DNA from: an uncultured Acidobacteriota bacterium
GTDB taxonomy: Bacteria; Acidobacteriota; Vicinamibacteria; Vicinamibacterales; UBA2999
Direction: 5' to 3'
DNA length: 64,000 bases
Assembly: GCA_963772065.1 (NCBI GenBank)
Contig: CAVYVZ010000008.1
Coordinates: 51,526-115,525 of the forward strand
This document shows positions 12,719 through 62,416 of the stretch, piece by piece (position 1 is the first letter of the stretch; the number at the start of each line of letters is the position of its first letter). The notes below the pieces were generated by a model that saw nothing but the letters and a program-made list of their open reading frames with translations, did not search any database and had not been told where the DNA came from. The translations under genes were made by a program, and so were the position numbers.

Positions 12719-14350
12719 GTGTCGCGTCTGCTTGCCGTGATGGCCGGTGTGGCCGGCATCGCAGCGTGGACGATGCACGCCCAGCGCGGGCTCGTTCTCA
12801 GTCACTACGACGCGAAGGCGCATCTCGTCGTCGCCCGCCGCGTCTTCGACAATCTCACGCCCGGCTGGCAGCAGATCGGCGCGGTGTGGCTGCCGCTGCC
12901 GCACCTGCTCAACATGGTGCCTACTCAGGTCGACTGGTTCTACCAGACTGGAATCGCCGCGTCCGCGCTCTCGATCCTGAGCTTCTGCATCTGCGCGTGG
13001 GCGACCGCTCGATTGGTCCTTGCGGTGACCGGGTCGGTAGCGGGCGCAGCCGCCTCGGCTGCCGTGCTCGCCCTCAATCCGAACGTCCTCTACCTCCAGG
13101 CCACGCCGATGACGGAGCCGCTGCTCCTCGCCTTGTCGTCGCTGGCAGTGCTGTGGCTGTTCGAGTGGGCGCAGACGGATCGAGACGACGTACCGCGGCA
13201 TCTCGGCCTGGCGCTCGCGGCGCTCGCCTGGACACGCTATGAAGGATGGGCCGTGATTGGCGCTGCCCTCGCTGCTGCGGCGTTCGCGACATGGCGGCGT
13301 GGCGCGTCAGCGCGCGTCGTGGCGATGCGCACGATGCGCCTCGCGTTATGGCCGGGTGTGGCCGTCATCGTGTTTCTGATCAACAGCCGGATCACTGTGG
13401 GCGCCTGGTTCGTGTCGGGCGGCTTTTACGTTCCCGATCCCACGTATCAAGGCAGGCTCGGGCGTTCGTTCGTGGCGATCTGGTGGGGCACGCACCAGTT
13501 GAGCGGCTATGTGATCGAGATCGTCGGGCTGGCCACGGCCGTCGTGCTGATCGCGCGCACGTTCGCCCGGCGGCAGGACGCGGCGCTGCTCCTGCCGACG
13601 GCGCTTCTTGCCGCCGCGGCGCTCCCGTTCTATGCGTTCTTCGAAGGCCACCCATATCGGATCCGCTACATGATGCCCGTCGTCGGCGCGTGCGCCGCAC
13701 TCGCCGGAATCGGCGTCGGGATGTTCGGGCGCAAGGCCGCCGCCCTGGGCTGGGTGCTCGCGATTGGGCTCGTGGCTGCGACCGTCATCGAATCACCGCC
13801 GTGGTCGCGTGACGCCCCGCTTCTGCTGGAGGCGCAGTGGGACCGCCCGAACAGCGCCGCCCGCCGCCGCGTGAGCGCCTGCCTCGCCGGCGAGTACCAG
13901 GGCGAAAAGATCCTCGCGAGCATGGGGTCGCTTGCGCACTACATGCAGGAGCTCTCGCATGAGGGCCTCGACATTTCTGATTTCGTCAACGAAGGGAACG
14001 GCGTGATCTGGGAGATGGCGCTCGAGACGGGGCCGGCGCCGCACGCGGGCTGGATGCTGGTGGAGGAGCAGGCGGAAGGCGGCGACGTTCTCGCGCAACT
14101 CATCCGCCAGCGCCCAAACTTTCTGGACGGCATGACGCGCACCTGTGACGGCGGTGGAGTCACTCTCTATCGTAAGGCAAAAGGCAAAAGGCAAAAGGTA
14201 AAAGGTAAAAGGCAAATGATGATTCCTACGAGTTGCATCGAAGCGAGCGTGCTGCTTCGAAGGCACTCGCGTGAATCACAATTTACCTTTTACCTTTTAC
14301 CTTTTGCCTTGTATCAACGTCCGAATCGCATACCGATGGTGAACGAGTAA
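12719..14350 (+). CDS. GT-C fold (ArnT/PMT-like) membrane glycosyltransferase; C-terminus encoded by repeat element
   Basis: About 10 TM helices then a soluble C-domain. Start GTG 12719 or ATG 12740/12674 (uncertain). No stop before the 14174-14310 element, so the ORF reads through it (KAKGKRQKVKGKRQ...FTFYLLPFAL) and ends inside the convergent gene. Confidence 0.6.
   Translation: MSRLLAVMAGVAGIAAWTMHAQRGLVLSHYDAKAHLVVARRVFDNLTPGWQQIGAVWLPLPHLLNMVPTQVDWFYQTGIAASALSILSFCICAWATARLVLAVTGSVAGAAASAAVLALNPNVLYLQATPMTEPLLLALSSLAVLWLFEWAQTDRDDVPRHLGLALAALAWTRYEGWAVIGAALAAAAFATWRRGASARVVAMRTMRLALWPGVAVIVFLINSRITVGAWFVSGGFYVPDPTYQGRLGRSFVAIWWGTHQLSGYVIEIVGLATAVVLIARTFARRQDAALLLPTALLAAAALPFYAFFEGHPYRIRYMMPVVGACAALAGIGVGMFGRKAAALGWVLAIGLVAATVIESPPWSRDAPLLLEAQWDRPNSAARRRVSACLAGEYQGEKILASMGSLAHYMQELSHEGLDISDFVNEGNGVIWEMALETGPAPHAGWMLVEEQAEGGDVLAQLIRQRPNFLDGMTRTCDGGGVTLYRKAKGKRQKVKGKRQMMIPTSCIEASVLLRRHSRESQFTFYLLPFALYQRPNRIPMVNE
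14174..14310. repeat. word-repeat hairpin element E1 (AAAAGGY heptamers / complement)
   Basis: Left arm 14174-14216 = 6x AAAAGG(C/T). Right arm 14282-14310 = 4x complement. Centre contains a nested hairpin CGAGT..TCGAAGC..GCTTCGA..ACTCG (14229-14269). Confidence 0.85.
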
Positions 14351-15012
14351 GTCCAGCCACCGAGATCGATCTTCGGACCGAGGAACTCCTCGGGAAGGTC
14401 TGCCTCCGCCGAGTGATACCGCACTTCTCCGCCAACGGAGTACGAGTCCGCCGCGAAGCGAATCCCGCCGAACGCGATCGGGCCTGTCGCGTTGCCGTCG
14501 GCGACATAGCGCTCGCGGAAGATGCTGTCGTCCCGGAAATCGACGAACTCACCGTCTTCGCTGTACCGCCAGTTGAAGATGCCGAGCCCCGCGCCGAAGT
14601 AGGGCTGAACGCTGTTTGACTGGCCGAGCGGCAGCACGCGCACCGTGAAGCTGACGGGCACGAGGCGCAGCCGGAGATCCTGATCGATCTCCGTACCGTC
14701 GTCATCGACGAAATCTTCGTAGACCGTGGGCACCGTGCGCCGATAGAAGCCGATGCCCGCACCAGCCTCGAAGTGCTGTCCGATTGGAATCAGCCATTCA
14801 CCGCTGACCGAGCCGCCGGTGAAGTCGCCCATCTCGAACACGAGGAAATCGCGATTCTCGACGAGCGTGTCGCCCGAGACGCGCGCGTCGAATCCGCGCG
14901 GCGAGAAACCGCCGAGCGTGAAGTTCAGTGTCTGTTGGGCCGCGACCGGGGCTGGTATGGCCGCGACGCACGCACCGGCGAGCAGCAATGAGGACGCAAG
15001 ACGTGTCACCAT
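14314..15012 (-). CDS. outer-membrane beta-barrel protein (OmpW/porin-like)
   Basis: Signal peptide ...AAIPAPVAAQQ, alternating strands, C-terminal FTIGMRFGR. Confidence 0.7.
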   Translation of the reverse strand: MVTRLASSLLLAGACVAAIPAPVAAQQTLNFTLGGFSPRGFDARVSGDTLVENRDFLVFEMGDFTGGSVSGEWLIPIGQHFEAGAGIGFYRRTVPTVYEDFVDDDGTEIDQDLRLRLVPVSFTVRVLPLGQSNSVQPYFGAGLGIFNWRYSEDGEFVDFRDDSIFRERYVADGNATGPIAFGGIRFAADSYSVGGEVRYHSAEADLPEEFLGPKIDLGGWTYSFTIGMRFGR

Positions 15013-15094
15013 GCCGCCCCAGAGAGCACGGCGTATGCCAGCGGCTCAGGTGAAAACACGCATGTTCCGAGGAGTGGCCTGTCGCTCCCGAAGG

Positions 15095-15865
15095 TCAGTC
15101 CGTCCTGTTTCGAGAACGAAACTCTCGGACTACGCCGAGCATCTGCGCGTGCAGCTGATCGTTGGCGGCGATCAGGTGCCCGGCCGCCGCGTCGAACGGC
15201 GCGCCATCGATGCCGGTGATGCGTCCGCCCGCCTCCTCGATGAGGAGCGCGCCCGCCGACACGTCCCACGGCTTCAGATGCTGCTCCCAGAATCCGTCGA
15301 AGCGTCCCGCGGCGACGTAGCACATATCGATGGCGGCCGAACCCAGGCGCCGCACCGCACGCGCACGCGCGAGGAACTCGCCGAAGAGGGCGACGAGCTC
15401 GGTGGAGTTCCTGTGCACGTCATAGGGAAACCCCGTCACGAGCAGGGCGTCGAGCAGCTGGTCGGTCGGCGATACGCGCAGCGGAGTCCCGTTCATCCGC
15501 GCGCCCTCGCCCCGCTCGGCCGTGAACAGCTCCTTCCGAGTTGGATCGTAGATGGCGCCCACGACCGCCCGGCCGTCCGCCTCGAGCGCGAGCGACGAGC
15601 AGAAGATCGGAAGACCGTGCGCGTAGTTCGTCGTGCCATCGAGCGGATCGAAGACCCACCGGAATGGCGACGGCGTCCGCGCGCTGCTCGTGGCGCCGAG
15701 CTCCTCGGCAAGAATATCGTGCGTCGGAAAGCGCTCGGCGAGCACGGCCCGGCACATCCGCTCGCACTCGAGGTCCACCTCGGTGACGAGATCGATCGCG
15801 CCTTTCTTGTCGATGCGGAAGCCGGTGGCGCGCCGCTCCATCTGGATGGCGCCAGCCTTCAGCAC
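15095..15865 (-). CDS. inositol monophosphatase family protein (SuhB-like)
   Basis: DLVTEVD, WVFDPLDGTTNY, WDVSAGALL motifs. First canonical start (GTG 15865) truncates the conserved N-terminal helix (upstream in-frame DPLFLATATEI); possible CTG 15904 start or undetected indel. Confidence 0.8.
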   Translation of the reverse strand: MLKAGAIQMERRATGFRIDKKGAIDLVTEVDLECERMCRAVLAERFPTHDILAEELGATSSARTPSPFRWVFDPLDGTTNYAHGLPIFCSSLALEADGRAVVGAIYDPTRKELFTAERGEGARMNGTPLRVSPTDQLLDALLVTGFPYDVHRNSTELVALFGEFLARARAVRRLGSAAIDMCYVAAGRFDGFWEQHLKPWDVSAGALLIEEAGGRITGIDGAPFDAAAGHLIAANDQLHAQMLGVVREFRSRNRTD

Positions 15866-19071: not shown

Positions 19072-19162
19072 GGCCACGAAGAACACGAAGGTCACGAAGC
19101 ACACGAAGCGCGTCTTGAATTTGATGATCTTCGTGTCTTCGTGATCTTCGTGGCCTTCGTGG
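19072..19162. repeat. word-repeat hairpin element E2 (NNCACGAAG x4 / CTTCGTGNN x4)
   Basis: Left arm 19072-19108, loop 19109-19128, right arm 19129-19162. Cores pair, dinucleotide spacers do not. Lies between convergent gene ends. Confidence 0.85.
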
Positions 19163-19201
19163 TTGCTTTCGACCAGCGCGGCCATGAGAGTCATCGGAGT
19201 C

Positions 19202-21707: not shown

Positions 21708-22918
21708 GCGGCAGCCTCGGGGTCGTCGAGCTCGCCGTACACGCGCTCCAGCTGCGACAGCAGATGTCGCCGTCTCACCTGGTAGCGCTCGTCGTCGATG
21801 CGGCCCGCGCGGCGTTGCTCCTCCACTTTCACCAGCTCGCCGTACAGCGAGTCGCGATGCGCCACGAGCCGCCGGCGCTCGTCGCGCCGATCGTCGCGGC
21901 GCAATGCGAGCCACACCCCGACGGCGACGACTAACGCGGCGATGCCGAGGGCGACGTTTCGCGGCCAGGTGCTGTGGTGCGGCAGGTTCGTCAGCTGGAT
22001 CGTCAGCTCCGATCCAGCGGCGAGGGCGCCGCCGCTGGCGCTCTGGAAGGGTGTGCCGTCTGCCGTCTTCACCTCTCCGCGATCGGGTAGTTGCGGCGAC
22101 GTGAGCTCGAGAGCGCCGACTTTTTCCGCGAATACGGCAACCCGCTGCAGCGGCACAGGAAATGTCTGCCGGACGGTTGCGGCACCGCCGTCGTAGAGAA
22201 GCTGAAAACCGATCTGGATCGACGACGTGCCGGGCGGAAACGGACCGGCAATCGTGACGCGATCGCCCTGCGCCGTGGCACCGGCGAACGAGCCCTGCAT
22301 CACGCGCACGCCGCCGGCGCCGGCCGGCAGATCGACGATCAGCGGTCCTCCGGTGTCCACGCGCGTGCGAGCCGTGTTCACGACATCGAGCAGGTAGAAG
22401 ACGCTCAGCGCGTCGTTCTGGAATTCGAAGACGAATCGCGAGTCGCTCCCGAAGACCACCGACCCTCTCACGGCCGGCGCGCTCGCGGCGTCGGCGGCCT
22501 CCTTGTCGCGGCGCGCGCGCGCCCGCTCGAGACCGGCGATGAGGATGACGCGGACGCCTCCGCTGCCGGGCACCTGGAACGGCTGCGACGTCAGCGATTC
22601 GCCATCGACGACGGCATGGGCCGTGGCGCTCGCGCCTTTGGGCAGCCCGGTGATCCGTACGCGGCCGGAGTCGTCTGTTGTCGCCTTGCGCGTCGCGCCG
22701 CCGGCGGAAACCGTGACCTCGTGGCCGATGATGTTGTTGCCGAGAGACTCGCGTACGAGCCGCACCGAGACGTCGCCGTCCGGCAGTTCGGGAGCCGGAA
22801 GCGCCCGTCCGGCGATCTGCGACGGATCCGGCATGTTGATCTGCGCCAGCAGATGGCCCAGGGCCCAAGGCTCGAGCCCCAGGGCCCAAAGCCCAAGGCC
22901 CAGGGCCCAAGGCCTCAT
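21704..22918 (-). CDS. CarboxypepD_reg-like domain membrane-anchored protein embedded in the ccm cluster
   Basis: Signal peptide MRPWALGLGLWALGLEPWALG encoded by a heptamer array. Ig-like VSVRLV...GHEVTV...TDDSGRVRITGL. C-terminal TM plus charged coiled tail. Confidence 0.6.
   Translation of the reverse strand: MRPWALGLGLWALGLEPWALGHLLAQINMPDPSQIAGRALPAPELPDGDVSVRLVRESLGNNIIGHEVTVSAGGATRKATTDDSGRVRITGLPKGASATAHAVVDGESLTSQPFQVPGSGGVRVILIAGLERARARRDKEAADAASAPAVRGSVVFGSDSRFVFEFQNDALSVFYLLDVVNTARTRVDTGGPLIVDLPAGAGGVRVMQGSFAGATAQGDRVTIAGPFPPGTSSIQIGFQLLYDGGAATVRQTFPVPLQRVAVFAEKVGALELTSPQLPDRGEVKTADGTPFQSASGGALAAGSELTIQLTNLPHHSTWPRNVALGIAALVVAVGVWLALRRDDRRDERRRLVAHRDSLYGELVKVEEQRRAGRIDDERYQVRRRHLLSQLERVYGELDDPEAAA
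22856..22914. repeat. tandem heptamer array E3 (GCCCARG x8) inside coding sequence
   Basis: 8 consecutive 7-nt units with a central CTCGAG. On the minus strand it encodes the (WALGxxx) signal peptide of the 21704-22918 gene. Confidence 0.85.
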
Positions 22919-22925
22919 CACGCCT

Positions 22926-23534
22926 TTAGCCGTGAGCCTTGAGCTCTGAGCTTTCATTGAGCTGCTGACCGCAGGCTTTGCAGAACCGCGCGTCGCTGTC
23001 ATTCGCCGTACCGCACGCGCAGGACGATCGGAGGCGGGCAGGCGGGACCTTCAGTCGGGTGGCGAGCTCACGCTCGATCTCGCTGCGGTATCCCGCGCCG
23101 CGATCGAGCTGCCGCAGCAGACCGGAGGCGCGGGCGCGCAAGCGCGCGCTCACCTCCGTAAAATCGCCGTCCGCCACTTTCCCCATTGCCCGATCGAACT
23201 CGAGATCCTTGATGGCGCGCAGCACCAGCGTCTTCTCGCGCTCGAGCGCATTGCGCGTCCGTCCGCCGAGGAGCTGCCCGCCCCGCGCCCGCTGCTCGCC
23301 CCCGAGCGGACCAAGCATCCGCCAGGCGGCGATGCCCACGCACGCCGCCGCGCCGACGATCAGGCTGAGGAGAACGACGGCGGCCGGAGTGGCCTCCCGC
23401 GTCACGAACACGACGGCCGTGGCGCCGGCCAGCCCCGCCAGCGTGAAGAACTGCCAGGGCTGGAGTTGCTCGTGCGAGGGCGCGGCATCCGCCGCGTCAC
23501 CCTCGCGTCGATCAATCGAGGCTTCGGAGCTCAT
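22926..23534 (-). CDS. two-TM membrane protein with C-terminal zinc-ribbon
   Basis: TM helices FFTLAGLAGATAVVFV / VVLLSLIVGAAACVGIAAW; CACG...CKACG zinc-ribbon at the C-terminus. Confidence 0.5.
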   Translation of the reverse strand: MSSEASIDRREGDAADAAPSHEQLQPWQFFTLAGLAGATAVVFVTREATPAAVVLLSLIVGAAACVGIAAWRMLGPLGGEQRARGGQLLGGRTRNALEREKTLVLRAIKDLEFDRAMGKVADGDFTEVSARLRARASGLLRQLDRGAGYRSEIERELATRLKVPPARLRSSCACGTANDSDARFCKACGQQLNESSELKAHG

Positions 23535-29226: not shown

Positions 29227-29559
29227 ATGATACCGGTTCAACGGCTGGTGCCGGAGGCGCTTGCCGAGGTGCTTCGAAAGGCGCCGCTGAGCGCCGAGAA
29301 GGTGGCATTCGCCTGGCGCACGGCCGTTGGTGCGTCAGTCGATCGGGTCAGCAGCGTTCGTCTGGATGGCCACACGCTGCGGGTCCGCGCCCGGGACGCG
29401 AGCTGGCAGCGCGAGATCGAGCGCTCGGCGTCGCTCATCTGCGCGCGTCTCGACGCGCTCCTGGGAAAGGATGTCGTCCGCGGTCTGGACGTCAGTTTGG
29501 GGTCTGGCCCCTATGGTGCCAGGTCTCCCCAAGAACCCTCAGGAGGCCTGGCACCATAG
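29227..29559 (+). CDS. DUF721 (DciA-like) protein; 3' end runs into hairpin E4
   Basis: [40 protein letters not shown] pattern typical of DUF721. Last about 20 aa encoded by the repeat. Confidence 0.6.
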
Positions 29560-29572
29560 GGGCCAGACCCCA
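29498..29572. repeat. perfect 26-bp inverted repeat hairpin E4
   Basis: TGGGGTCTGGCCCCTATGGTGCCAGG (29498-29523) / exact reverse complement (29547-29572). 23-nt loop contains AGGAGG. The last arm base is the A of the thiolase ATG. Confidence 0.9.
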
Positions 29573-30753: not shown

Positions 30754-30841
30754 CGTTCCAGGTTCCAGGTTCCCCGTTCCAGGTTCGTGTTCTTTGTTCG
30801 GTTCTCGGTTCTCAGTTCTCGGTTCTCGGTTCTTTGTTCGT
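30754..30841. repeat. left arm of four-helix-bundle cassette 1 (GGTTC-rich 7-nt words)
   Basis: Starts immediately after the thiolase TAA. Imperfect reverse complement of 31257-31349 (shared CCAGGTTCC..., GGTTCGTGTTCT...). Confidence 0.8.
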
Positions 30842-31136
30842 CCGTCACGTTGCATCGCCTGAGCGATGTAGCCGCGATCGACGGCGTCCCTCAGGTGCCC
30901 GCAACACTCCTTGAGCGAAGCGCGGGCGTTGACGACCATGCGTCCGAAATCTCTCGGGTAAAAGCGCGCGAATCCTTCCTCGATCTGGCTCACCGCCGAC
31001 GCGGCGGACTCACGCGTTGATCGCGGAGTTTGAAGTCAGCGGCGATGGAACTCGTCCCCACAACCTCGTACACCGCGAGTTTGAAGCGATACGTGAGCTG
31101 CCACGCTCGAAGATCCTCAACACGGCCGGCGGTCAT
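30842..31136 (-). pseudogene. four-helix-bundle protein (Avd / 23S rRNA IVS protein family), decayed copy
   Basis: MTAGRVEDLRAWQLTYRFKLAVYEVV...FKLRDQ | TRESAASAVSQIEEGFARFYPRDFGRMVVNARASLKECCGHLRDAVDRGYI. Frameshift at AA 31017-31018. Helix 4 is missing and the frame stays open through the arm (RTKNREPRTENREP...). Confidence 0.65.
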
Positions 31137-31256
31137 CCGATCCGCAAGTGCACATGGAATGCCGCGACGATCTGGGCCCGAATTCGCCGACAGGATGCCA
31201 AAGTACGCAGATTGCAAGCGCGTCAGCGTCAGTTCGGTACGATCAATTTGCGTCGA

Positions 31257-31349
31257 GACCAGAACCCCGAACCCAGAACCGCGAACCAAGAACCAAGAAC
31301 AGAACGCAGAACACGAACCCGGAACCTGGAACCGGGAACCTGGAACCGG
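31257..31349. repeat. right arm of cassette 1
   Basis: GAACC-rich words, reverse complement of 30754-30841. Ends 10 nt before the convergent sulfatase stop. Confidence 0.8.
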
Positions 31350-31358
31350 AGTGACGCG

Positions 31359-33073: not shown

Positions 33074-33119
33074 GCGCGCAGTTTACCAGCCCGCAGATCG
33101 GAGAGCGACGAGCAACGAG

Positions 33120-34658
33120 CTACGAACGACGATCGGCCGACGCGGCGCGGGCGGGGATCGGCTTCACCTCGAGATCCGACACCGCCGGCCCGTTGATCAC
33201 CCGTCCCTCGGGCGAGAATCGCGAGCCGTGGCATGGACAGTCCCACGACTGCTCCGCGCGGTTCCACGCCACGTCGCAGCCGAGGTGCGTGCACACGGGC
33301 GAGACGGCGTGCAACGTTCCCTCTCGATCGCGGCACACCGCAGCCTTGCCGCCCGGTCCCGCGAGAATGCCTCCCTCGCCCGGACGCAGATCCTCGGGCG
33401 ACGTCACGTCGGCATTCGTGTTCGTGAGACGGTCCTTCACGAGGTGTGCGGGGAATGCCAGGTTCTCGGCGACGTAGTCGTAGGCGGACGCAATTGGCTT
33501 CACGCGGGTGGCGTCGAACAGCTCCGAATACGGGTTCTTCCGTCCCGAGACGTGGTCGGTGAACATCATGCCGGCCAGCGTCCCGTAGGTCATACCGTTG
33601 CCCGCAAACCCCGTGGCGACGAACACGTGACTGGAACCGCTGTTCGGGCCGATGAATGGCAGACCGTCCACGGACTCGATGATCTGTCCGGACCAGTGAT
33701 ACTTCACGGGCCCGCCCTCGAACCGGACGCGAGCGAACTCGAGCAGGTTGTCGTAGTGCACCTCCGTCTGCGTTTCCTCGCCGGTCCGGTGATCCTCGCC
33801 GCCGATGATGAGATATGTCCTGCCCTCGACGTCGTGCGTGCGCGTGTAGTGATACGGATCCACGGTGTCCCAGAACAGTCCTCGGACGTAGTCCGGCTCC
33901 ACTTCAATCGCGAGCGCATAGCTCCGATAGGCGGCGATCTTGGTGTGCAGCAACACGCGATTGTTGACCGGGACGTTGGTCGCCACGAGCACGTGCCGCG
34001 CGGTGATCCGACGCGCATCCGTCTCGACGCGGCACGGCTCCCCCTCGTGAACGCCGGTCACCTTCGTCTGCTCGAAGATCTCGACACCACGGCGTGAGGC
34101 CTCCTTCGCGAGGCCTGCGAGATAGGCGGTCGCATGCACCTGCCCCTGACCGTCCCACCTGACGCCGCCCTTCGTGGCAAACGGCAGCGGCACCGCATCG
34201 ACCCATTCGACCGCACAGCCAGCACGGCGGGCGGCATCGAGCTCGTCGGCGAGCGTGGCCAGATGAGCCGCGTCCTCGGTGTAGAGGTATCCGGGCGTGC
34301 GCTCGAAGCGAGCACCCAGCGTCGATGCCGCAAGGCTCTCGATCTGATCGATGGCATCGCGCTTCGATGCGCTCACGAGGCGCGCACCTTCGAGGCCGAA
34401 GTCCTTGATCACCGTCTGATAGCGCGCATCGATCGCTTCGGTGAGATGGCTCGTGGTATGGCCTGACTCGCCGCTGCCGATCCGGTCGTGCTCGAGGACG
34501 GCGACGCGAAGACCTCGACCGCTGAGCAGCACGGCCGCGGTGAGACCGGTCACACCGCCGCCGACGATGGCGACGTCGAGATCGAGATCCCGGGAGAGCG
34601 CGGAAAACGCGGGCGTCTGAGCTGTGGCGCGCCAAAGCGATTCGGTATCAGGAATCAT
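33120..34658 (-). CDS. FAD-dependent oxidoreductase fused to a Rieske [2Fe-2S] domain
   Basis: DVAIVGGGVTGLTAA dinucleotide fold; C-terminal CTHLGC...CPCHGSRF Rieske motif. ATG 34658 preferred. Confidence 0.85.
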   Translation of the reverse strand: MIPDTESLWRATAQTPAFSALSRDLDLDVAIVGGGVTGLTAAVLLSGRGLRVAVLEHDRIGSGESGHTTSHLTEAIDARYQTVIKDFGLEGARLVSASKRDAIDQIESLAASTLGARFERTPGYLYTEDAAHLATLADELDAARRAGCAVEWVDAVPLPFATKGGVRWDGQGQVHATAYLAGLAKEASRRGVEIFEQTKVTGVHEGEPCRVETDARRITARHVLVATNVPVNNRVLLHTKIAAYRSYALAIEVEPDYVRGLFWDTVDPYHYTRTHDVEGRTYLIIGGEDHRTGEETQTEVHYDNLLEFARVRFEGGPVKYHWSGQIIESVDGLPFIGPNSGSSHVFVATGFAGNGMTYGTLAGMMFTDHVSGRKNPYSELFDATRVKPIASAYDYVAENLAFPAHLVKDRLTNTNADVTSPEDLRPGEGGILAGPGGKAAVCRDREGTLHAVSPVCTHLGCDVAWNRAEQSWDCPCHGSRFSPEGRVINGPAVSDLEVKPIPARAASADRRS

Positions 34659-41353: not shown

Positions 41354-41486
41354 GATGCCAGACGCCCCGCCGAGCCACCTTATTTACAGAGGGGGCAGCA
41401 ACCGGTCGCGGCGGTCTCGCGGCATCCTCTCAGATAGCGTGGCGGGTCATCCGACACCCTGTCAGCGTAGGGGCTCAAGTGGAGTG

Positions 41487-41531: not shown

Positions 41532-41538
41532 TAGGGGG

Positions 41539-49633: not shown

Positions 49634-50968
49634 ATGCGGATTTCTGCGGCGGCGCTCGCCCTGGCACTCGCCGGCGGCGCATGCGCAACCTCACATCCTG
49701 ACACTTCAAAGGTTTCACGCGAGATCGAACGCCGCACGGGCGCCGCAATTCGTCCTGCCGGGTCCGAAGAAGCGCTCCCACCGGGCGCCACGATCGACGA
49801 CGGTCTGACGCAGACGGAAGCGGTGGCCATCGCGCTCTGGAACAACGCCGAGTTTCAGGCTAGCCTCACCGAGCTCGGCTTCGCGCGCGCGGACCTCGTG
49901 GAGGCAGGGTTGCTCCGGAATCCGGTGCTGTCGCTGCTGTTCCCTGTCGGACCGAAACAACTCGAGGCCACCCTCAAGTGGCCAATCGAGGCGCTGTGGG
50001 AACGGCCTCGACGCATCGCGGCGGCGGGACTTGCGCTCGACCGGGTTGCGGCGTCGCTCGAAGCGCGCGGCCTCGATCTCGCGGCGGCGGCCAAAACGGC
50101 CTACGCGGAGCTGGCGCTTGCGATCGACCGGCTTGGCCTCAGCGAGGAGGCGGCGGTGCAGCGTGAGCGTTTCGCCGGGCTGACCGACGCGCGCCTCCGC
50201 GCGGGAGACATCAGCGAGCTCGAAGCACGCACCGCGCGAATCGAGGCCGCCCGTGCGCAGCAGGACGCGGCCCGCGCACGGCTCGACGTCTCGGTGCGCT
50301 CGAGTGAGCTCCGCCAACTGCTCGGCCTCGCCCTCGATTCGCGACCGATTCAGCTGGCGGGCGGGCCTTCGCCGGTGGCCAGCTGCGGGACTATCGCGGC
50401 GATGCGGGAGGAAGCGTTCGCGTCGAGGCCAGACGTGCGCGCCGCGGAGATTGCGGTCGAGGAAGGCGGCCGTCGTCTGGGGTGGGAGCGCGCGCGAATC
50501 ATCGCCTTGACCGGGGTGCTCGATGCAAACGGCCAGGGCAGCGAGGGATTCGAGATGGGGCCCGGGATTGAAATCGGCGCTCCGCTGTTCGACCGCAACC
50601 AGGGCGGCCGCGCGCGGGCGGCAGCGGCCCTGGAGCATGCAAGCCGCACGTACGTGGCCACGCGCGAGCGGGTAGCCACCGAGCTTCAGACAGCGGTCTC
50701 ACAGCTCGAGTACGCGCGACAGGCGCAGTCGCTGTGGCGAGACAGCGTGGTGCTGCCGTCGGAACAGCAGGTTCAGGCGGCAGAACGCGCCTACGTCGAA
50801 GGCGATGTGTCGATGCTCTTCGTGCTCGACACCACGCAGCGCCTGACCGATGCGCGGCTGCGGGCGCGAGAGGCGCAGGCCGATGTGGACCGCGCCATGG
50901 CGCGACTCGAGCGAGCCATTGGACGGCGATGCGGTGCTGACGGTAAGGAGATTCGTGCGAATCAGTAG
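49634..50968 (+). CDS. czcC: TolC/CzcC-family outer-membrane efflux lipoprotein
   Basis: Lipobox LAGGAC; two OEP repeats. Precedes the adaptor and RND pump. Confidence 0.8.
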   Translation: MRISAAALALALAGGACATSHPDTSKVSREIERRTGAAIRPAGSEEALPPGATIDDGLTQTEAVAIALWNNAEFQASLTELGFARADLVEAGLLRNPVLSLLFPVGPKQLEATLKWPIEALWERPRRIAAAGLALDRVAASLEARGLDLAAAAKTAYAELALAIDRLGLSEEAAVQRERFAGLTDARLRAGDISELEARTARIEAARAQQDAARARLDVSVRSSELRQLLGLALDSRPIQLAGGPSPVASCGTIAAMREEAFASRPDVRAAEIAVEEGGRRLGWERARIIALTGVLDANGQGSEGFEMGPGIEIGAPLFDRNQGGRARAAAALEHASRTYVATRERVATELQTAVSQLEYARQAQSLWRDSVVLPSEQQVQAAERAYVEGDVSMLFVLDTTQRLTDARLRAREAQADVDRAMARLERAIGRRCGADGKEIRANQ

Positions 50969-50970
50969 TC

Positions 50971-51030
50971 AAACCACGAAAGCCGCGACATGCACGGTAG
51001 CGAGTTCGTGGTTTTCGTGTGTTCCGTGGT
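50971..51030. repeat. word-repeat hairpin element E6 (CACGAA / TTCGTG words)
   Basis: AAACCACGAA (50971-50980) / TTCGTGGTTT (51005-51014), perfect 10-bp IR, plus extra TTCGTG-like words. Same word as E2. Begins 3 nt after the czcC stop. Confidence 0.7.
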
Positions 51031-52196
51031 TGAGCCATCTGCCGCTCGCGATGGGCGCAATGGTGGTCGCCGCAGGCTGCGGCGGCAGCGCCGAACCGGC
51101 CAAGTCGCCCGCGCCGGCAACCGTCTCCGCTCCCGTGAAGGAAGCCGATCTCAGCACCGTCACACTGACGCCTGAGGCCGAGAAGCGGCTCGGCATCGCA
51201 ACCGCCGTCGTCGAGCGCCGACCGATTGCGCGCAATCGCGTCGTGGGCGGAGAAATCACCGCACCATCGGGTGCGCAGCTCGCGATCACTGCTCCTGTCG
51301 CAGGGACCCTGCAGGGTGGCGAGGTGCCGCGTGCCGGAATGGTGGTCTCGCGCGGCCAGACGCTCTTCCACCTGCTCCCGATTCAACCGGCCGAGCGCGA
51401 TGCGCCCGTGGATGCGCAGCAGGCGCTCGACACCGCGCTCGCCAGGCAGGCCGCGGCTTCCGCGAAAGTGCGCCGCGCAGAACAGTTGCTGAAGGACGGC
51501 GCCGGGAGCCGCCGTGCCCTCGAGGAAGCGCAGGCCGAGCTCGCCATCGCTGAAGCCGATGCGAAGGCCGCGCGCGGGAAGGTGGCGCTCGCCTCCCGAA
51601 GCCGAACGACGGCGGGCGGCGTGACCATCGACGCGCCGGAAACCGCCGTCGTGCTCGCCGTGCACGTGACGAGCGGTCAAACCGTGGCCGCGTCTGCTCC
51701 GCTCGTGGACCTGGTGCAGCTCGACACCGCGTGGGTCAAGGTTCCGATCTATGCCGGCGAGCGAGCGGACATCGATCCGAGCGCCCCCGCGCACGTGCTC
51801 GCCCTCAGCGGTCCGATCGATGCCGAGGGTGTGCTCGCCCGCCCAATCGCGGCGCCACCATCCGCAAACGCCGCCGCGGCGGCGGTCGATCTGTACTACG
51901 CCTTCTCCAACCAGGGTCGACGCTTTCGACCCGGCGAGCGCGTCAGCGTCCGCCTGCCGCGACGAGCGGGCGCCGAGGCGCTCGTCGTGCCGAAGGCCGC
52001 GCTGCTGCACGATGCCTACGGCGGCACCTGGGTCTACGTGGCGCGCGCAGCCCACCAGTTCGCACGTCATCGTGTTGCGGTGGTCGACGTGACGGGCGAA
52101 TTCGCCGTTCTCAGCCGCGGCCCGCAACCGGGCGCTCGCGTGGTCACCGAAGGCGCGGCCGAGCTGTTCGGCACCGAGTTCGGGACAGGGAAATGA
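51030..52196 (+). CDS. czcB: RND efflux periplasmic adaptor (CzcB/HlyD family)
   Basis: Lipobox VAAGC; coiled-coil hairpin and beta-barrel domains. Start uncertain (TTG 51030 or ATG 51051). Confidence 0.75.
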   Translation: MSHLPLAMGAMVVAAGCGGSAEPAKSPAPATVSAPVKEADLSTVTLTPEAEKRLGIATAVVERRPIARNRVVGGEITAPSGAQLAITAPVAGTLQGGEVPRAGMVVSRGQTLFHLLPIQPAERDAPVDAQQALDTALARQAAASAKVRRAEQLLKDGAGSRRALEEAQAELAIAEADAKAARGKVALASRSRTTAGGVTIDAPETAVVLAVHVTSGQTVAASAPLVDLVQLDTAWVKVPIYAGERADIDPSAPAHVLALSGPIDAEGVLARPIAAPPSANAAAAAVDLYYAFSNQGRRFRPGERVSVRLPRRAGAEALVVPKAALLHDAYGGTWVYVARAAHQFARHRVAVVDVTGEFAVLSRGPQPGARVVTEGAAELFGTEFGTGK

Positions 52197-52197
52197 G

Positions 52198-52288
52198 CAC
52201 AGGGAGATCAGGGAGGCGGATCTTCACGGGGAAGTTCGAGAGATCAGGGATACCAAGATTCCTCCCTGACCTCCCTGATCTCCCTGTG
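52198..52288. repeat. word-repeat hairpin element E7 (GATCAGGGAGG words)
   Basis: CACAGGGAGATCAGGGAGG (52198-52216) / exact reverse complement (52270-52288), with nested TCAGGGA/TCCCTGA words inside. Starts 2 nt after the czcB stop and ends 15 nt before the czcA ATG. Confidence 0.85.
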
Positions 52289-52302
52289 ACTCCGACTCCC
52301 GT

Positions 52303-55300: not shown

Positions 55301-55383
55301 CGACGGTCCTGAACCTGTTCCTGCTGCCGGCGATATTCCTTCGATATGGCCAGGCTGGCCCGAGCCTAACCGCCGGGTCGTAA
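52303..55383 (+). CDS. czcA: heavy-metal efflux RND transporter, CzcA/CusA family
   Basis: 1026 aa, 12 TM with two large periplasmic loops; HME-RND-like TM4 ([16 protein letters not shown]). Confidence 0.9.
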
Positions 55384-60039: not shown

Positions 60040-60228
60040 GTCGTTCACGCTTCTGTGTTCTCTCTGCTCGGTTCGTGTTCAGGTTCGGTTCGGTTCGGTT
60101 CGGTTCGTCGTTCGCATTCATCGTTCGTCGTTCGGAGGCCCGAACCGTGAAGGTTCGAACCCAGAACCCGAACCGAACGATGAAGCTGAAGATGAACCGA
60201 GCAGAGAGAACGCAGAAGCGTGAACGAC
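60040..60228. repeat. ORF-less long hairpin element E8 sharing termini with cassette 2
   Basis: Outer 38 nt of the arms match 37/38 (GTCGTTCACGCTTCTG[T/C]GTTCTCTCTGCTCGGTTC). GGTTC words inside; apical CGAACC-GTGAA-GGTTCG. Begins 1 nt after the ppiC-like stop and contains the GTG start of the next gene. Confidence 0.85.
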
Positions 60229-60600
60229 GTACGCCTTGACGTGTGGCTGGATGTCGCCTGTCTTTTCAAGACCCGCTCCGAGGCGAAGCGGGCCTGCGAG
60301 GGCGGCAAGGTGGAGGTCAACGGCGAGCACGCGAAGCCGCACCGTGCCGTTCGCGAGGGCGACGAAATTCGCGTGAGCCGTGGATTCGGCCGCCACCAGA
60401 TCGTCGTCGTGCGCGGCGTCATGGACGCGCACGTGAAGAAGTCCGACGCCCGCACGCTCTACGAAGACCTCACCCCCCGACCCACGCCTGAAGAAGTCGA
60501 GATTCGCCGCATGGATCGCATCTATCGCGCGGCCGCCGCGGCCGCCGGCACCGATCGCCGCAAGCGGCGGGAGATTCGGAGTGCGAAGCAGCGATACTAG
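60220..60600 (+). CDS. S4-domain RNA-binding protein (Hsp15-like)
   Basis: VRLDVWLDVACLFKTRSEAKRACEGGKVEVNG S4 motif; basic C-terminal tail. Confidence 0.75.
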   Translation: MNDVRLDVWLDVACLFKTRSEAKRACEGGKVEVNGEHAKPHRAVREGDEIRVSRGFGRHQIVVVRGVMDAHVKKSDARTLYEDLTPRPTPEEVEIRRMDRIYRAAAAAAGTDRRKRREIRSAKQRY

Positions 60601-60601
60601 A

Positions 60602-60722
60602 CGTCGTTCACTCTTCTGAGTGCACGCTTCTCGGTTCGTGTTCAGCTTCGCCGTTCGATTCCTCGTTCGCGGTTCGCGGTTCGCGGTTCGTGGTTCTTGT
60701 TCTCTGTTCGGGGTTCGTGGTT
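60602..60722. repeat. left arm of four-helix-bundle cassette 2
   Basis: Starts 2 nt after the S4 gene TAG. (GCGGTTC)n words. 26/26 nt CGCTTCTCGGTTCGTGTTCAGCTTCG shared with the reverse complement of the right arm. Confidence 0.85.
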
Positions 60723-60838
60723 CCCAAATCCTGCGCGCCGCGATGCCTTCCCGCGTGGCAGATCTTCGCATCCGCGAAGTGCTTTGTGTGTTTTCAACCA
60801 GCAATCCGTGCGGCATTATCCGTGCACTATGAGTCCGC

Positions 60839-61395
60839 ATGGGAGTTCATCGTTTCACCGAATTGCGAGCGTGGCAGGTGTGCAACACCTACAAGCGAGC
60901 CATCTACCGGCTGTGCGCGGCCGGCGCGTTGTCGCGTGATTTTGAACGGCGAGACCAGCTCGAACGATCAGCCGCGAGCCGTGTGCGCATCTGTCGGAAG
61001 GGTTTGGTCGATTCAGCCCGCCAGATTTCGCGCGCTACTGCGTGATGGCGCGGTCGTCACTGATGGAGTCGCAGAACCACCTGATCGACATTGTCGACCG
61101 AGGCCACATCACCGAGGACGCGAGAGTCGAACATAATGCGATGGCCGAAGCGGCCCTCGAGGAAGTGACTGGCCTGATGGAGTACCTTCAGTCGCCCGAA
61201 GCGCTCCGAAATGCGCGTCGAGCGCGCGAACGGAGAATTGAGAACCGCGCGAAACGCGCGAACCAGGAACGCGAACCCCGAACCAAGAACCGCGAACCTC
61301 GAACAGCGAACCGCGAACCCCGAACAGAGAAGCGAACCCCGAAGCTGAACACGAACCGAGAAGCGAGAAGGCGAAGCGTGAACGACGACGAATGA
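60839..61395 (+). CDS. four-helix-bundle protein (Avd / 23S rRNA IVS protein family) with arm-encoded (NREPRTx)n tail; one apparent frameshift
   Basis: FTELRAWQVCNTYKRAIYRL / RRDQLERSAAS | PCAHLSEGFGRFSPPDFARYCVMARSSLMESQNHLIDIVDRGHI / AMAEAALEEVTGLMEYL. CC 60979-80 should be CCC to stay in frame. Stop directly after the right arm. Confidence 0.75.
61240..61387. repeat. right arm of cassette 2
   Basis: (GAACCGC)n words, reverse complement of the left arm. Terminus ...GTGAACGACG pairs with CGTCGTTCAC at 60602. Confidence 0.85.
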
Positions 61396-61410
61396 GATTA
61401 GGATGAGTAA

Positions 61411-62395
61411 GTGCCGCGCAACCAGGAAGTCATCCGGCAGTGGAAGGTGCTGCACGCGCTGGAGTCGTCGCGGCATGGCGCCTCCATCGACTCGCTCGGC
61501 GGGCGATCTCGAGGTGACGACGCGGACGATCCGGCGCGACCTGGCGGCGCTGCAGGAAGCGGGGTTTCCGCTCTTCGACACGCGCGACGAGGACGGCCGC
61601 GTGCGCTGGCGGCTCGACGGCCAGGTGCTCAAGGGCCTCGATACCGGCTTCACCCTCGGCGAGCTGTGCGCGCTCTATTTGAGCCGGAACCTCCTCGAGT
61701 CGGTCGCCGGCACACCGTTTCAGCGCGACCTCGGTCACGCCTTCGCGCGGCTTCAGGGGGCGCTCTCCCCTCGCATGCGTCAGTTTCTCGATCGGCTGCC
61801 TGGTGTGCTCGCGGCCAAGCCGGGGCCGCGCGCGCGCGGCGGCGAGGCGGCGTCGGACATCGTGGCGCGCCTCCTCGAGGCGACCCTGCACTTTCGCATC
61901 GCGACGATGCGGTATCACTCGGTATCGAGCGCGAAGATTAAAGACTATGTGATCCACCCATACCGTCTCGCGTTCGCGCAAGGCGGGCTGTACCTGCTGG
62001 CGTACGTCCCCGCGTACGAGGACGTGCGCACGTTCGCGGTCGACCGCATCAAGGCGGTGTCTCTCGAGAAGCAGACGTTCACGCCGCGTCGCGACCTGCC
62101 GGAAGACGTCTTCGCCAATTCGCTGGGCGTGAACACGGGGCCGCCCGAACGCGTGGAGATCGCCTTCGACGCGCAGATCGCCCCCTACATCCGCGCGCGC
62201 GTCTGGCACGCATCGCAGGAGCTGCGCGACGAAACCGACGGCGCGCTGACGCTCACGATGCACGTGTGTCACGATTGGGCGTTGCGAAGCTGGATCCTCA
62301 GCTGGGGCCCGTTTGCCCGTATCCTCTCTCCTGCAAAGCTTGCTGCCCAGATCCGCGAAGACCTCGACGCCGCGAAAGCGAAATATGGGCCATAA
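61411..62395 (+). CDS. HTH-WYL domain transcriptional regulator; apparent frameshift in the HTH
   Basis: GTG 61411 PRNQEVIRQWKVLHALESSRHGASIDSL | GDLEVTTRTIRRDLAALQEAGFPL, then WYL core (HPYRLAFAQGGLYLLAY) and a WCX-like C-terminus. Removing one G at 61498-61503 restores the frame. Confidence 0.8.
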
Positions 62396-62416
62396 GCCAT
62401 GAGCCGTAAGCCATGA
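62389..62416. repeat. tandem heptamers E10 (GCCRTRA x4) bridging stop and start codons
   Basis: GCCATAA GCCATGA GCCGTAA GCCATGA. Unit 1 holds the WYL TAA. Units 2-4 form a 5-codon mini-ORF (ATG AGC CGT AAG CCA TGA) whose stop overlaps the next ATG (62413). Confidence 0.8.

What the first reader, a model, noticed from the sequence alone, without database searches (positions are those of the whole stretch)
14174..62416. Family-level pattern: intergenic spacers filled stop-to-start by word-repeat hairpins with 7-nt periodicity
- At least ten loci share one design but use different words: 14174, 19072, 22856, 29498, 30754, 50971, 52198, 60040, 60602, 62389.
- The words are AAAAGGY, CACGAAG, GCCCARG, GGTTC-type, GATCAGGGAGG and GCCRTRA, usually as a tandem array followed by its complement.
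- The 5' edge lies 0-3 nt after the upstream stop codon at six loci: 30754, 50971, 52198, 60040, 60602, 62389.
- The 3' edge overlaps or lies within 24 nt of the next start codon at 29572, 51030, 52303, 60220, 61411 and 62413.
- Because units are 7 nt, all frames become 7-aa periodic, and flanking ORFs read into the elements at several sites.
- I do not recognise this as REP/BIME, ERIC, CRISPR or a known MITE class.
Basis: seen in the sequence. Interest (0 to 1): 0.8.

Follow-up and report, generated by a model that had tools for sequence, protein, structure and literature searches.

The report
Repeat-armed hairpin insertions between genes
The short gaps between genes in this soil acidobacterial genome hold inserted hairpins whose arms are tandem 7- to 9-base words. 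The same design brackets a small gene known from ribosomal-RNA "intervening sequences", which links these hairpins to the unexplained heptamer repeats of cyanobacteria and Xanthomonas.

Summary
Eight of the ten loci fold into hairpins far beyond shuffled controls. 50971 is weak, and 62389 is only a short array with no hairpin. The period is 7 at about half the loci and 9 at 19072, 50971 and 52198. 29498 has no word repeats at all.

Two loci (30754-31350 and 60602-61395) are cassettes. In each, long inverted heptamer arrays enclose a PF05635 gene (23S-rRNA intervening-sequence protein, Avd-like four-helix bundle). 60040-60230 is a gene-less copy with the same conserved ends.

Orthologous operons from soil metagenomes usually have spacers of -4 to +20 nt. 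The hairpins are therefore insertions that are present in some lineages and absent in others, and this explains the "stop-to-start" fill.

Flanking inverted word arrays accompany PF05635 genes in 39 of 48 loci tested, across Acidobacteriota, Bacteroidota and Cyanobacteria. Published data add Xanthomonas XCC0516 and the Coxiella rRNA intervening sequence, where RNase III cuts inside heptamer repeats.

The closest known relatives are rRNA intervening sequences, cyanobacterial STRR repeats and Xanthomonas GGGAATC arrays. RNA-level looping-out or excision is my inference, not a demonstrated result. I rate this a new variant of a known kind, with interest about 0.65.

The parts
14174..14310 (.). 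Gene-less hairpin. It has an AAAAGGY x6 heptamer array, a palindromic core and the complementary array. It lies between two convergent genes. The plus-strand ORF has lost its stop and reads through the hairpin; the minus-strand gene's stop is 4 nt from the right edge.
   Evidence: (z -10.2 / -12.0)
19072..19164 (+). Gene-less hairpin made of CACGAAGNN words (period 9, four copies per arm). It starts 58 nt after the stop of the shikimate-kinase/phosphoesterase gene. The same word family occupies a different spacer in L093/L084.
   Evidence: (dG -63.2 on the plus strand against -51.8 on the minus)
22856..22951 (-). GCCCARG heptamer array (8.6 copies) followed by an imperfect complement. G-U pairs let it fold only on the minus (mRNA) strand. 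The upstream zinc-ribbon gene's stop (22926-22928) lies inside the 5' arm. The next gene probably starts at 22834.
   Evidence: (dG -69.6 minus against -52.4 plus)
29498..29572 (+). Plain 31-bp hairpin with no word repeats. The DciA ORF ends inside it, and its last paired base is the A of the thiolase ATG. Its membership of the family is doubtful.
   Evidence: (z -10.8)
30754..31350 (-). Gene-bearing cassette. Its arms are GGTTCNN heptamer arrays (30755-30840) and their complement (31259-31350). It sits between the thiolase stop (30751-30753) and the stop of a convergent gene (31359-31361).
   Evidence: 85-nt arms, 82% complementary; z -6.8
30850..31212 (-). PF05635 (four-helix-bundle / IVS protein) reading frame of the 30754 cassette. 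The assembly shows one frameshift near 31020.
   Evidence: (E 6e-7 for the C-terminal half)
33103..33135 (-). One-sided GTCGYTC-type heptamer array (about 4 copies) over the stop codon of the 33120-34709 gene, in a 46-nt spacer.
50972..51031 (+). Weak hairpin plus TTCGTGNNN words (period 9). It lies between the outer-membrane efflux gene stop (50966-50968) and the membrane-fusion gene start.
   Evidence: (z -3.5 / -2.2)
52198..52288 (+). Gene-less hairpin of GATCAGGGAG-type words (period 9). It starts 1 nt after the membrane-fusion gene stop and ends 14 nt before the RND pump ATG. It is present in the closest relative L135 and absent from L136, L137 and L138.
   Evidence: (z -6.1)
60040..60230 (+). 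Gene-less copy of the GGTTC-type element, with the family's conserved terminal inverted repeat (GTCGTTCACGCTTCT...GGTTCGTGTTCAGGTTCGG). It starts at the base after the SurA-like stop. Its last 11 nt contain the native GTG start of the S4-domain gene.
   Evidence: (dG -129.9, z -15.1)
60603..61387 (+). Gene-bearing GGTTC-type cassette. The left arm is 60603-60723 and the right arm 61257-61387, with the same terminal inverted repeat as 60040. It sits between the S4 gene stop (60598-60600) and the true WYL-regulator start (GTG at 61411).
   Evidence: (z -12.7)
60839..61236 (+). PF05635 reading frame of the 60602 cassette. The assembly lacks one base near 60980. The protein is 89% identical to an intact copy in a relative, with dN/dS 0.04.
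   Evidence: E 2e-17; PDB 2GSC = XCC0516, E 1.2e-10
62385..62416 (+). Marginal array GCCRTRA x4.6. It spans the WYL gene stop and the next gene's ATG and forms no hairpin.
   Evidence: (z -0.5)

Best explanation
These loci are insertions of one class of palindromic element whose two arms are tandem arrays of a short word, most often 7 nt and sometimes 8-10, in inverted orientation. The full form carries a PF05635 gene in the loop (23S-rRNA intervening-sequence protein / S23p / Avd-like four-helix bundle). The short forms are the arms alone.

Shown:
- The window holds two gene-bearing cassettes and one gene-less copy that shares their conserved 50-nt ends. It also holds four or five gene-less hairpins of other word families.
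- The elements lie in spacers that are only about 0-20 nt long where empty, so any insertion appears to fill the gap from stop to start.
- They are present in some lineages and absent in others, even among close relatives.
- The arrays change quickly, while the PF05635 protein and the terminal repeat are conserved.

Inferred:
- The insert is tolerated because the operon transcript folds into a long stem that loops it out. This brings the upstream stop and the downstream start together at the stem base, which would keep translational coupling.
- As in the homologous rRNA intervening sequences, the stem is probably cut by RNase III, so that the insert is removed at the RNA level.
- The arrays grow and shrink by replication slippage.

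How the element reaches new sites is unknown. The conserved termini suggest that some protein recognises them.
For: PF05635 genes sit between the arms:
- Pfam E 2e-17 and 6e-7.
- 691 homologs were found, many named 'four helix bundle protein' and several from Vicinamibacterales.
- These are the only two copies in the window.
- The family profile hits PDB 2GSC, which is XCC0516.

Long-range stems enclose the ORFs.

The family has conserved ends:
- The termini of 60040 match both ends of gene-bearing copies in about 25 other assemblies at 85-96% identity over about 50 nt.
- GTGAACGAC occurs 5 times in the window against 0.69 expected, and 4 of the 5 are element ends.

The association is general. 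In 39 of 48 PF05635 loci the flanking inverted repeat scores above the 95th percentile of control positions (median 68.5 against 22). The arm period is 7 in most and 8-10 in the rest. This includes 6 of 7 cyanobacterial plasmid loci, where heptamer arrays fill the spacers on both sides.

Empty sites exist:
- In 80 orthologous SurA-S4-WYL loci the spacers are mostly -4 to +5 nt. Most of the long spacers carry word hairpins or arrays, of the same or different words.
- The RND operon gives the same result.
- A close relative, L134, has an empty SurA|S4 site.

The gene is functional: dN/dS is 0.04 with dS 1.3. The terminal repeat stays 80-94% identical although synonymous sites are saturated.

RNA level:
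- The mRNA strand folds better in 12 of 17 gene-less hairpins, and every large difference (9-17 kcal/mol) favours the mRNA strand.
- The stem bases lie within about 10 nt of the stop and the start.

Precedent: the Coxiella 23S rRNA intervening sequence carries an S23p ORF preceded by 2-3 tandem GACAGAT heptamers inside its stem. RNase III excises it in vitro, and the 5' cut falls at the first heptamer (PMC4990558). rRNA intervening sequences are generally cut by RNase III without ligation.
Against: - No gene-bearing counterpart was found for the AAAAGGY, CACGAAG, GCCCARG or GATCAGGGAGG word families, so their descent from cassettes is an inference from shared design.
- No transposase, target-site duplication or other mobility signature was identified. 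There is no duplication at SurA|S4 and only an ambiguous GAC at S4|WYL.
- The strand-asymmetry test is small and partly non-independent. It showed nothing for the arms of gene-bearing copies (18 against 18, a noisy measure).
- There are no RNA data for this organism.
- One-sided arrays (62389, 33103, L047, L135) show that arrays can exist without a hairpin.
- The loci used for the statistics were chosen around PF05635 genes and two operons.
- The window assembly contains several frameshifts, so the state of its two PF05635 genes is uncertain.
Confidence: 0.62

Rival explanations
1. The arrays arise on the spot and nothing moves. At each spacer a tandem array starts by replication slippage. Heptamers are favoured by the polymerase footprint, as proposed for the general excess of heptameric simple repeats in bacteria. 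Template switching then copies the array into its complement. PF05635 genes merely lodge in such hairpins or are retained there.
For: - Each locus uses its own word, and BLAST finds no relatives for most words among 553 kb of related DNA.
- One-sided arrays exist at 62389, 33103, L047, L049, L118 and L135.
- Array content differs strongly between copies whose proteins are 89% identical.
- The literature reports intergenic over-representation of heptamers and offers the slippage hypothesis.
Against: - The GGTTC-type copies share a non-repetitive 50-nt terminal repeat across many unrelated sites and genomes.
- CACGAAG-type hairpins occupy at least four different spacers and lineages and start with the same CCACGAA motif right after the stop.
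- Proteins and words co-vary: the two loci that share a word are 81% identical, while loci with different words are 25-48% identical.
- Flanking inverted repeats are found in 39 of 48 PF05635 loci.
Confidence: 0.2
2. The hairpins are host-selected regulatory structures. They act as operon-internal mRNA stabilisers, processing sites or translational-coupling devices, like REP/BIME in enterobacteria, and are kept because they tune the relative expression of neighbouring cistrons.
For: - The mRNA strand folds better in 12 of 17 cases.
- Stem bases bring the stop and start codons together, and the S4 start codon is sequestered in the 60040 stem.
- The same roles were proposed for the cyanobacterial hupS-hupL STRR hairpin.
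Against: - Most orthologous spacers are empty, and close relatives differ in presence, so no locus-specific function is conserved.
- Different words occupy the same spacer in different lineages (L079 against the window).
- The same architecture carries a selfish-looking gene and occurs inside rRNA.
Confidence: 0.12
3. They are a known repeat class that went unrecognised: REP/BIME-RAYT elements, transposase-mobilised MITEs, CRISPR remnants or intrinsic terminators.
For: They are intergenic palindromes that are present in some lineages and absent in others. One family has terminal inverted repeats.
Against: - The stems are not followed by T-tails, and terminator-like sites are no more frequent than in shuffled sequence.
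- There is no Rfam family match.
- There are no spacer-repeat units of CRISPR size.
- The only gene found inside or next to the elements is PF05635, with no transposase or RAYT.
- No clear target-site duplication was found.
Confidence: 0.04
4. The arrays are assembly or sequencing artefacts.
For: The window contains several apparent frameshifts: the WYL regulator, the sulfatase-like gene and both PF05635 frames.
Against: The same architecture is present at homologous and non-homologous sites in dozens of independent short-read and long-read assemblies and in finished cyanobacterial plasmids.
Confidence: 0.01

Closest known systems
23S (and 16S) rRNA intervening sequences that carry an S23p / PF05635 open reading frame (Leptospira, Coxiella, Brucella, CPR bacteria)
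   Same: - A PF05635 gene is enclosed by terminal inverted repeats that form a long stem.
- In Coxiella the stem contains 2-3 tandem heptamers whose copy number varies between strains, and RNase III cuts there.
- The elements are regarded as selfish and horizontally spread, with gene-less forms at the same sites.
   Different: - Here the elements lie in spacers of protein-coding operons, not in rRNA helices. No rRNA gene is in the window.
- The arms are much longer arrays (up to about 120 nt).
- One genome holds many word families.
- RNase III processing is untested here.
Cyanobacterial STRR (short tandemly repeated repetitive) heptanucleotide sequences, such as the hupS-hupL intergenic hairpin
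   Same: - The units are 7 bp and there are several word families per genome.
- They are intergenic and lie within operons.
- An array followed by its complement forms a hairpin.
- Their function is unknown; transcript stability or translational coupling has been proposed.
- In my sample, heptamer arrays bracket PF05635 genes on Nostoc, Aulosira, Anabaena and Pseudanabaena plasmids.
   Different: - STRR were described only in filamentous cyanobacteria, whereas this is a 66% G+C acidobacterial genome with other words.
- I found no paper that links STRR to PF05635 genes.
Xanthomonas GGGAATC heptamer arrays (Rehm et al. 2015)
   Same: - The heptamer arrays are 89-93% intergenic and lie close to ORF ends.
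- There are 70-75 convergent inverted pairs per genome.
- Length varies between species while position is kept.
- One array lies 6 nt from bccP and overlaps the start of XCC0516, the PF05635 protein of PDB 2GSC.
   Different: - A single word family dominates.
- The authors interpreted the arrays as G-quadruplex formers.
- The authors noted no link to PF05635.
REP/BIME elements and REPIN-RAYT systems
   Same: - They are intergenic imperfect palindromes inside operons.
- A protein gene is flanked by the repeats it is associated with.
- REP elements affect mRNA stability (from general knowledge of the family).
   Different: - The elements here have no Y1 transposase.
- Their arms are tandem word arrays rather than a fixed 20-40 nt palindrome.
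- The word differs from locus to locus.
TAACTGA heptamer direct repeats of Beggiatoaceae, Cyanobacteria and Bacteroidetes (MacGregor 2015)
   Same: They are intergenic heptamer arrays lying a few nucleotides upstream of start codons, with a patchy cross-phylum distribution.
   Different: They are almost always direct repeats with no complementary arm, and they use a single word.

Membership tests
rRNA intervening sequence (IVS) of the S23p/PF05635 type | Encodes a PF05635 (23S_rRNA_IVP) protein | tested here: met
   Met for 60839-61236 and 30850-31212. Not met for the gene-less hairpins.
rRNA intervening sequence (IVS) of the S23p/PF05635 type | Bounded by inverted repeats that form a long stem enclosing the ORF | tested here: met
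   The arms are 85-120 nt, with z -12.7 and -6.8. The same holds in 39 of 48 related loci.
rRNA intervening sequence (IVS) of the S23p/PF05635 type | Inserted in a helix of a 23S or 16S rRNA gene | tested here: not met
   The window has no rRNA gene. The elements lie between protein-coding genes.
rRNA intervening sequence (IVS) of the S23p/PF05635 type | Excised from the transcript by RNase III | not testable with these tools
   Known only by analogy with Coxiella. It needs RNA-end mapping or an in vitro assay.
STRR-type heptamer hairpins | Tandem arrays of a 7-nt unit, three or more copies | tested here: met
   Met at 14174, 22856, 30754, 60602, 62389 and 33103. The period is 9 at 19072, 50971 and 52198, and 29498 has no repeats.
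STRR-type heptamer hairpins | Several unrelated word families in one genome, located between genes | tested here: met
   The window has at least five words. Intergenic enrichment has p 3.5e-23.
STRR-type heptamer hairpins | Occurs in heterocyst-forming or filamentous cyanobacteria (as the family was defined) | tested here: not met
   The closest homologs are from Acidobacteriota / Vicinamibacterales assemblies.
MITE (miniature inverted-repeat transposable element) | Conserved terminal inverted repeats shared by dispersed copies | tested here: met
   Met for the GGTTC type only.
MITE (miniature inverted-repeat transposable element) | Target-site duplication flanking the insertion | tested here: inconclusive
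   Comparison of filled and empty sites shows none at SurA|S4. At S4|WYL a GAC triplet could equally be read as an extension of the palindrome.
MITE (miniature inverted-repeat transposable element) | A cognate autonomous element encoding a transposase | tested here: not met
   The only cargo gene is PF05635, which has no known catalytic activity. The rest of the genome could not be searched.
REP/BIME-RAYT | A fixed 20-40 nt imperfect palindrome in many copies, associated with a Y1 (RAYT) transposase | tested here: not met
   The sequence differs from locus to locus and the arms are tandem arrays. No RAYT lies in or beside the elements.
Intrinsic (Rho-independent) terminator | A G+C-rich stem followed by a run of T | tested here: not met
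   None of the word hairpins is called, and terminator-like sites are not above shuffled expectation.
CRISPR array | Direct repeats of 23-55 nt separated by unique spacers of similar size | tested here: not met
   The units are 7-9 nt, arranged head to tail with no spacers.

The most novel reading that the evidence does not exclude
PF05635 genes bracketed by inverted tandem-word arrays form one widespread class of selfish cassette that has not been recognised as such. It would be found in Acidobacteriota, Cyanobacteria, Bacteroidota, Xanthomonas and Coxiella/Leptospira, in rRNA and in operon spacers alike. Its gene-less derivatives would be the source of cyanobacterial STRR repeats, of the Xanthomonas GGGAATC arrays, and of much of the long-noted excess of intergenic heptameric repeats in bacteria. 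The word arrays would be the signal that lets RNase III remove the insert from any transcript. The Avd-like protein would act on these arms, in mobility or in processing.
Probability: 0.3. Interest if true: 0.85.

Novelty: new variant of a known kind. Interest (0 to 1): 0.65.

Why it matters
Intergenic heptamer repeats have been described since 1990: STRR in cyanobacteria, GGGAATC in Xanthomonas, and the general excess of heptameric simple repeats. Neither their origin nor their function is known. The PF05635 "intervening-sequence protein" family is large and widespread, and apart from its DGR relative Avd it has no known role.

This analysis connects the two. The same gene sits between inverted word arrays in four phyla, and gene-less hairpins with the same termini sit next to it. 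Comparing filled and empty sites shows that they are insertions. This gives a concrete hypothesis that can be tested: an element that makes its own insertion harmless by being looped out or cut out of the RNA.

On the practical side, these hairpins break short-read assemblies. They also add spurious C-terminal tails and false start codons to annotated genes, and they can be mistaken for regulatory RNA.

Tried and rejected
- Exact look-ups of two window proteins in the assembly index found nothing, probably because the gene starts were called differently. A later homology search showed that the window comes from a 508,674-bp contig.
- Rfam returned only a tRNA at gathering threshold. At permissive threshold it returned only spurious microRNA-precursor matches to the long hairpins.
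- Promoter and terminator scans gave nothing at the elements.
- BLAST of the non-GGTTC elements against 553 kb of related DNA found only the CACGAAG family elsewhere. The origin of the other words stays open.
- A duplex-energy comparison of the sense and antisense arms of gene-bearing copies was uninformative: 18 against 18, and the method forces long spurious pairings.
- A search of all held loci for further PF05635 subfamilies with other words found none beyond those already targeted.
- I first read the PF05635 frameshifts as pseudogenes. I withdrew that reading once the WYL regulator and a sulfatase-like gene also proved to be frameshifted and the gene showed dN/dS 0.04.
- I considered that the stop-to-start fit reflects precise targeting of junctions. 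The simpler reading is that native spacers are only 0-20 nt long.
- Literature searches for a published link between PF05635 and heptamer arrays found only the Coxiella observation.

Full report
**What is in the window**

The window is 66% G+C. Tandem Repeats Finder and a lag-autocorrelation scan agree that period-7 arrays are a specific feature. Ten segments (418 nt) are periodic at lag 7, against 0-1 at every other lag except the harmonic 14.

The arrays lie at 14174/14282, 22855, 30755/31259, 60665/61257 and 62385, and at an unlisted site, 33103. 60068 has mixed period 5/17/7. 29498 is a plain hairpin without repeats.

Folding against dinucleotide-preserving shuffles gives strong hairpins at most loci:
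- 14174: z -10 on the plus strand and -12 on the minus
- 19072: z -11
- 29498: z -10.8
- 52198: z -6.1
- 60040: z -15
- 22856: z -5.7, on the minus strand only

50971 is weak (z -3.5 and -2.2) and 62389 does not fold. The stated distances to stop and start codons hold.

**The two long loci carry a gene**

At 60602-61395 and 30754-31350, inverted heptamer arrays of 85-120 nt enclose about 400-600 nt. They form long-range stems with z -12.7 and -6.8.

[quoted passage not shown] A database search returns 691 homologs, many at 65-93% identity. They are named 'four helix bundle protein', and several come from Vicinamibacterales or Acidobacteria assemblies. A profile of the family hits PDB 2GSC, which is Xanthomonas XCC0516.

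These are the only two copies in the window. Homologs often have C-terminal tails such as EPRT-x-N, which are the translated GAACC arrays.

**One family with conserved ends, with and without the gene**

The 190-nt hairpin at 60040-60230 begins and ends with the same sequence as the 60602 cassette: GTCGTTCAC-N-CTTCT...GGTTCGTGTTCAGGTTCGG (I6/I8).

That 50-nt terminus recurs at both ends of gene-bearing copies in about 25 other assemblies, at 85-96% identity. It typically begins a few bases after a neighbouring stop codon.

GTGAACGAC occurs five times in the window against 0.69 expected, and four of the five are these element ends. So 60040 is a gene-less copy of a dispersed element family.

**The association between PF05635 and inverted word arrays is general**

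I compared the two flanks of 48 PF05635 genes by local alignment, using positions 1.3 kb away as controls. In 39 of 48 loci the score exceeds the 95th percentile of the controls (median 68.5 against 22). The arms are periodic at 7 in most loci and at 8-10 in the rest.

Distant acidobacterial paralogs (34-40% identity) have 7-, 9- or 10-nt words around a GTTCG core. Roseivirga (Bacteroidota) has TTCAACAC 8-mers.

On cyanobacterial plasmids the gene is bracketed by heptamers that fill the spacers up to the neighbouring start codons:
- GAGTCAG in Nostoc and Aulosira
- GGGAAAA in Nostoc
- AACAGGG in N. edaphicum
- CAGGTGA/CAGGGAA in Anabaena 90, between cas6 and cas4
- AAAAGCT/AAAAGCC in Pseudanabaena

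The two loci that share a word have proteins 81% identical, while loci with different words have proteins 25-48% identical.

Published tables place a GGGAATC array 6 nt from bccP and overlapping the start of XCC0516.

**They are insertions into tiny spacers**

I fetched 80 soil-metagenome loci that carry the orthologous SurA-like / S4-domain / WYL-regulator / next-gene operon.

The estimated spacers are mostly -4 to +5 nt. A minority reach 40-194 nt.

The long spacers mostly carry word hairpins or arrays:
- GGTTC-type hairpins in the SurA|S4 spacer of L104, L062, L112, L109 and L082
- a hairpin of a different word (GGTNACA) in that same spacer in L079
- a CACGAAGNN period-9 hairpin in S4|WYL of L093/L084, the same word as window 19072
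- an AAAATGC hairpin in WYL|next of L107
- several one-sided arrays

A close relative whose PF05635 protein is 89% identical has an empty SurA|S4 site (TAGTGGAGAAC).

The RND efflux operon gives an independent replicate. The window has 82-nt and 106-nt spacers with period-9 hairpins. L136, L137, L138 and one further contig have 3-20 nt. The closest relative, L135, has a 97-nt hairpin of the same GATCAGGGAG words but a different array layout, plus a one-sided TTCGTG remnant.

The 'stop-to-start' fit therefore needs no special targeting. In these genomes the only place an insertion can go without breaking a gene is a spacer of a few bases.

**Dynamics**

Between the window and L134 the PF05635 gene shows dN/dS 0.04 with dS about 1.3. 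The gene is under strong purifying selection.

The arrays of the same two copies are largely different. The terminal repeat stays 80-94% identical across copies, more than saturated neutral sites would allow. This suggests the termini are recognised by something.

In L134 and L048 the cassette after the S4 gene is inverted relative to the window. This fits either recombination between the arms or re-insertion.

**How it probably works**

The hairpins have no T-tails and are not called as terminators. No Rfam family matches them.

For gene-less hairpins in co-directional operons, the mRNA strand folds better in 12 of 17 cases. Every large difference (9-17 kcal/mol) favours the mRNA strand through G-U pairs. 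This is suggestive evidence that the RNA structure matters. The sample is small and partly non-independent, and a similar test on gene-bearing arms was uninformative.

The stem bases lie within about 10 nt of the upstream stop and the downstream start. At 60040 the native GTG start of the S4 gene is the last part of the stem. A ribosome terminating at the stop would melt the stem base and expose the start. The insert would then be looped out and the coupling seen in empty sites could persist. This step is inferred.

The homologous elements in rRNA are cut out by RNase III without ligation. In Coxiella the intervening sequence has an S23p ORF preceded by two or three tandem GACAGAT heptamers inside the stem. 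RNase III excises it in vitro, and the 5' cut falls at the first heptamer.

By analogy I propose that the operon copies are RNase III substrates too. This is untested here, and the way new copies arise is unknown.

**What remains unexplained**

- The element's terminal GTGAACGAC is identical to the native start of the S4 gene, which is present in many empty sites. At S4|WYL the same nonamer clearly belongs to the element, because orthologs lack it. This could mean a preference for sites that resemble an element end, or it could be a historical accident. I could not decide between these.
- The AAAAGGY, GCCCARG and GATCAGGGAGG families have no gene-bearing counterpart in the data I hold.
- 29498 (no words) and 62389 (no hairpin) may not belong to the family.

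**Comparison with what is known**

The closest relatives are:
- rRNA intervening sequences with an S23p ORF. They share the gene, the enclosing stem and, in Coxiella, the heptamers. Their location differs.
- Cyanobacterial STRR hairpins. They share the 7-bp design inside operons, and their function is unknown.
- Xanthomonas GGGAATC arrays, with 70-75 inverted pairs per genome.

Heptameric simple repeats are known to be over-represented between genes in many bacteria. PF05635 genes are known to sit between cas genes.

Seven searches found no paper that links PF05635 genes in general to flanking word arrays, or that describes these elements in Acidobacteriota.

I rate the finding a new variant of a known kind. 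It is an intervening-sequence-type element living in operon spacers, with many word families and gene-less derivatives.

**Caveats**

- The gene calls are crude (GC3-based), and the related loci were chosen around specific genes.
- The window assembly has several frameshifts, in the WYL regulator, a sulfatase-like gene and both PF05635 frames. I do not call any of these pseudogenes.
- The source organism is inferred only from its best homologs.

Noticed in passing
window 61403-61520: The WYL-domain regulator is split between two frames. Orthologs show that the true start is the GTG at 61411 (MPRNQEVIRQWKVLHALE...). After about 30 codons the window switches to the frame of the 61403 ORF. This looks like a single-base indel in the assembly.
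   Followed up: partly
window 31359-33073 (minus strand): A sulfatase-like gene with a TPR C-terminus is split into two overlapping ORFs (32315-33073 and 31359-32588). This is another apparent frameshift. With the two PF05635 frameshifts, it suggests about one indel error per 15 kb in this assembly.
   Followed up: partly
L051, L055, L058, L063, L066, L071 and about 9 more loci, SurA|S4 junction: In about 15 orthologous loci the S4-domain reading frame follows the SurA-like TGA stop in the same frame with no canonical start codon (…ATGTGA|AGCGAC…). This could be stop-codon read-through, an unusual initiation codon or a fusion protein. I did not pursue it.
   Followed up: no
L134 2229-4519; L048 598-957: In two relatives the PF05635 cassette after the S4 gene is in the opposite orientation to the window. 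L134 also has an extra peptidase S10 gene between the cassette and the WYL regulator.
   Followed up: partly
window 41474-41521: A further intergenic hairpin (23-nt arms, 83% complementary, 2-nt loop) lies in the 41353-41539 spacer. It has no clear word repeats and was not in the finding.
   Followed up: no
window 49634-55383: This is a three-gene RND efflux operon (outer-membrane factor, membrane-fusion protein, RND pump). It has a word hairpin in each of its two spacers. Relatives name the family as cobalt-zinc-cadmium / heavy-metal efflux.
   Followed up: yes
window 46209-46284 (minus strand): A tRNA-Phe (GAA) gene is the only RNA gene detected in the window.
   Followed up: no
L001 670-730, L008 667-757, L027 697-739: An AGTCTGA heptamer hairpin sits at the same site in three different acidobacterial assemblies, with a different number of repeat units in each. 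It would be a good case for measuring array turnover.
   Followed up: no
L130 638-1000 (Anabaena sp. 90 plasmid pANA02): About 300 nt of alternating CAGGTGA / CAGGGAA heptamers lie between cas6 and a PF05635 gene in a type I-D CRISPR-Cas locus. No matching array is evident on the other side of the gene.
   Followed up: partly
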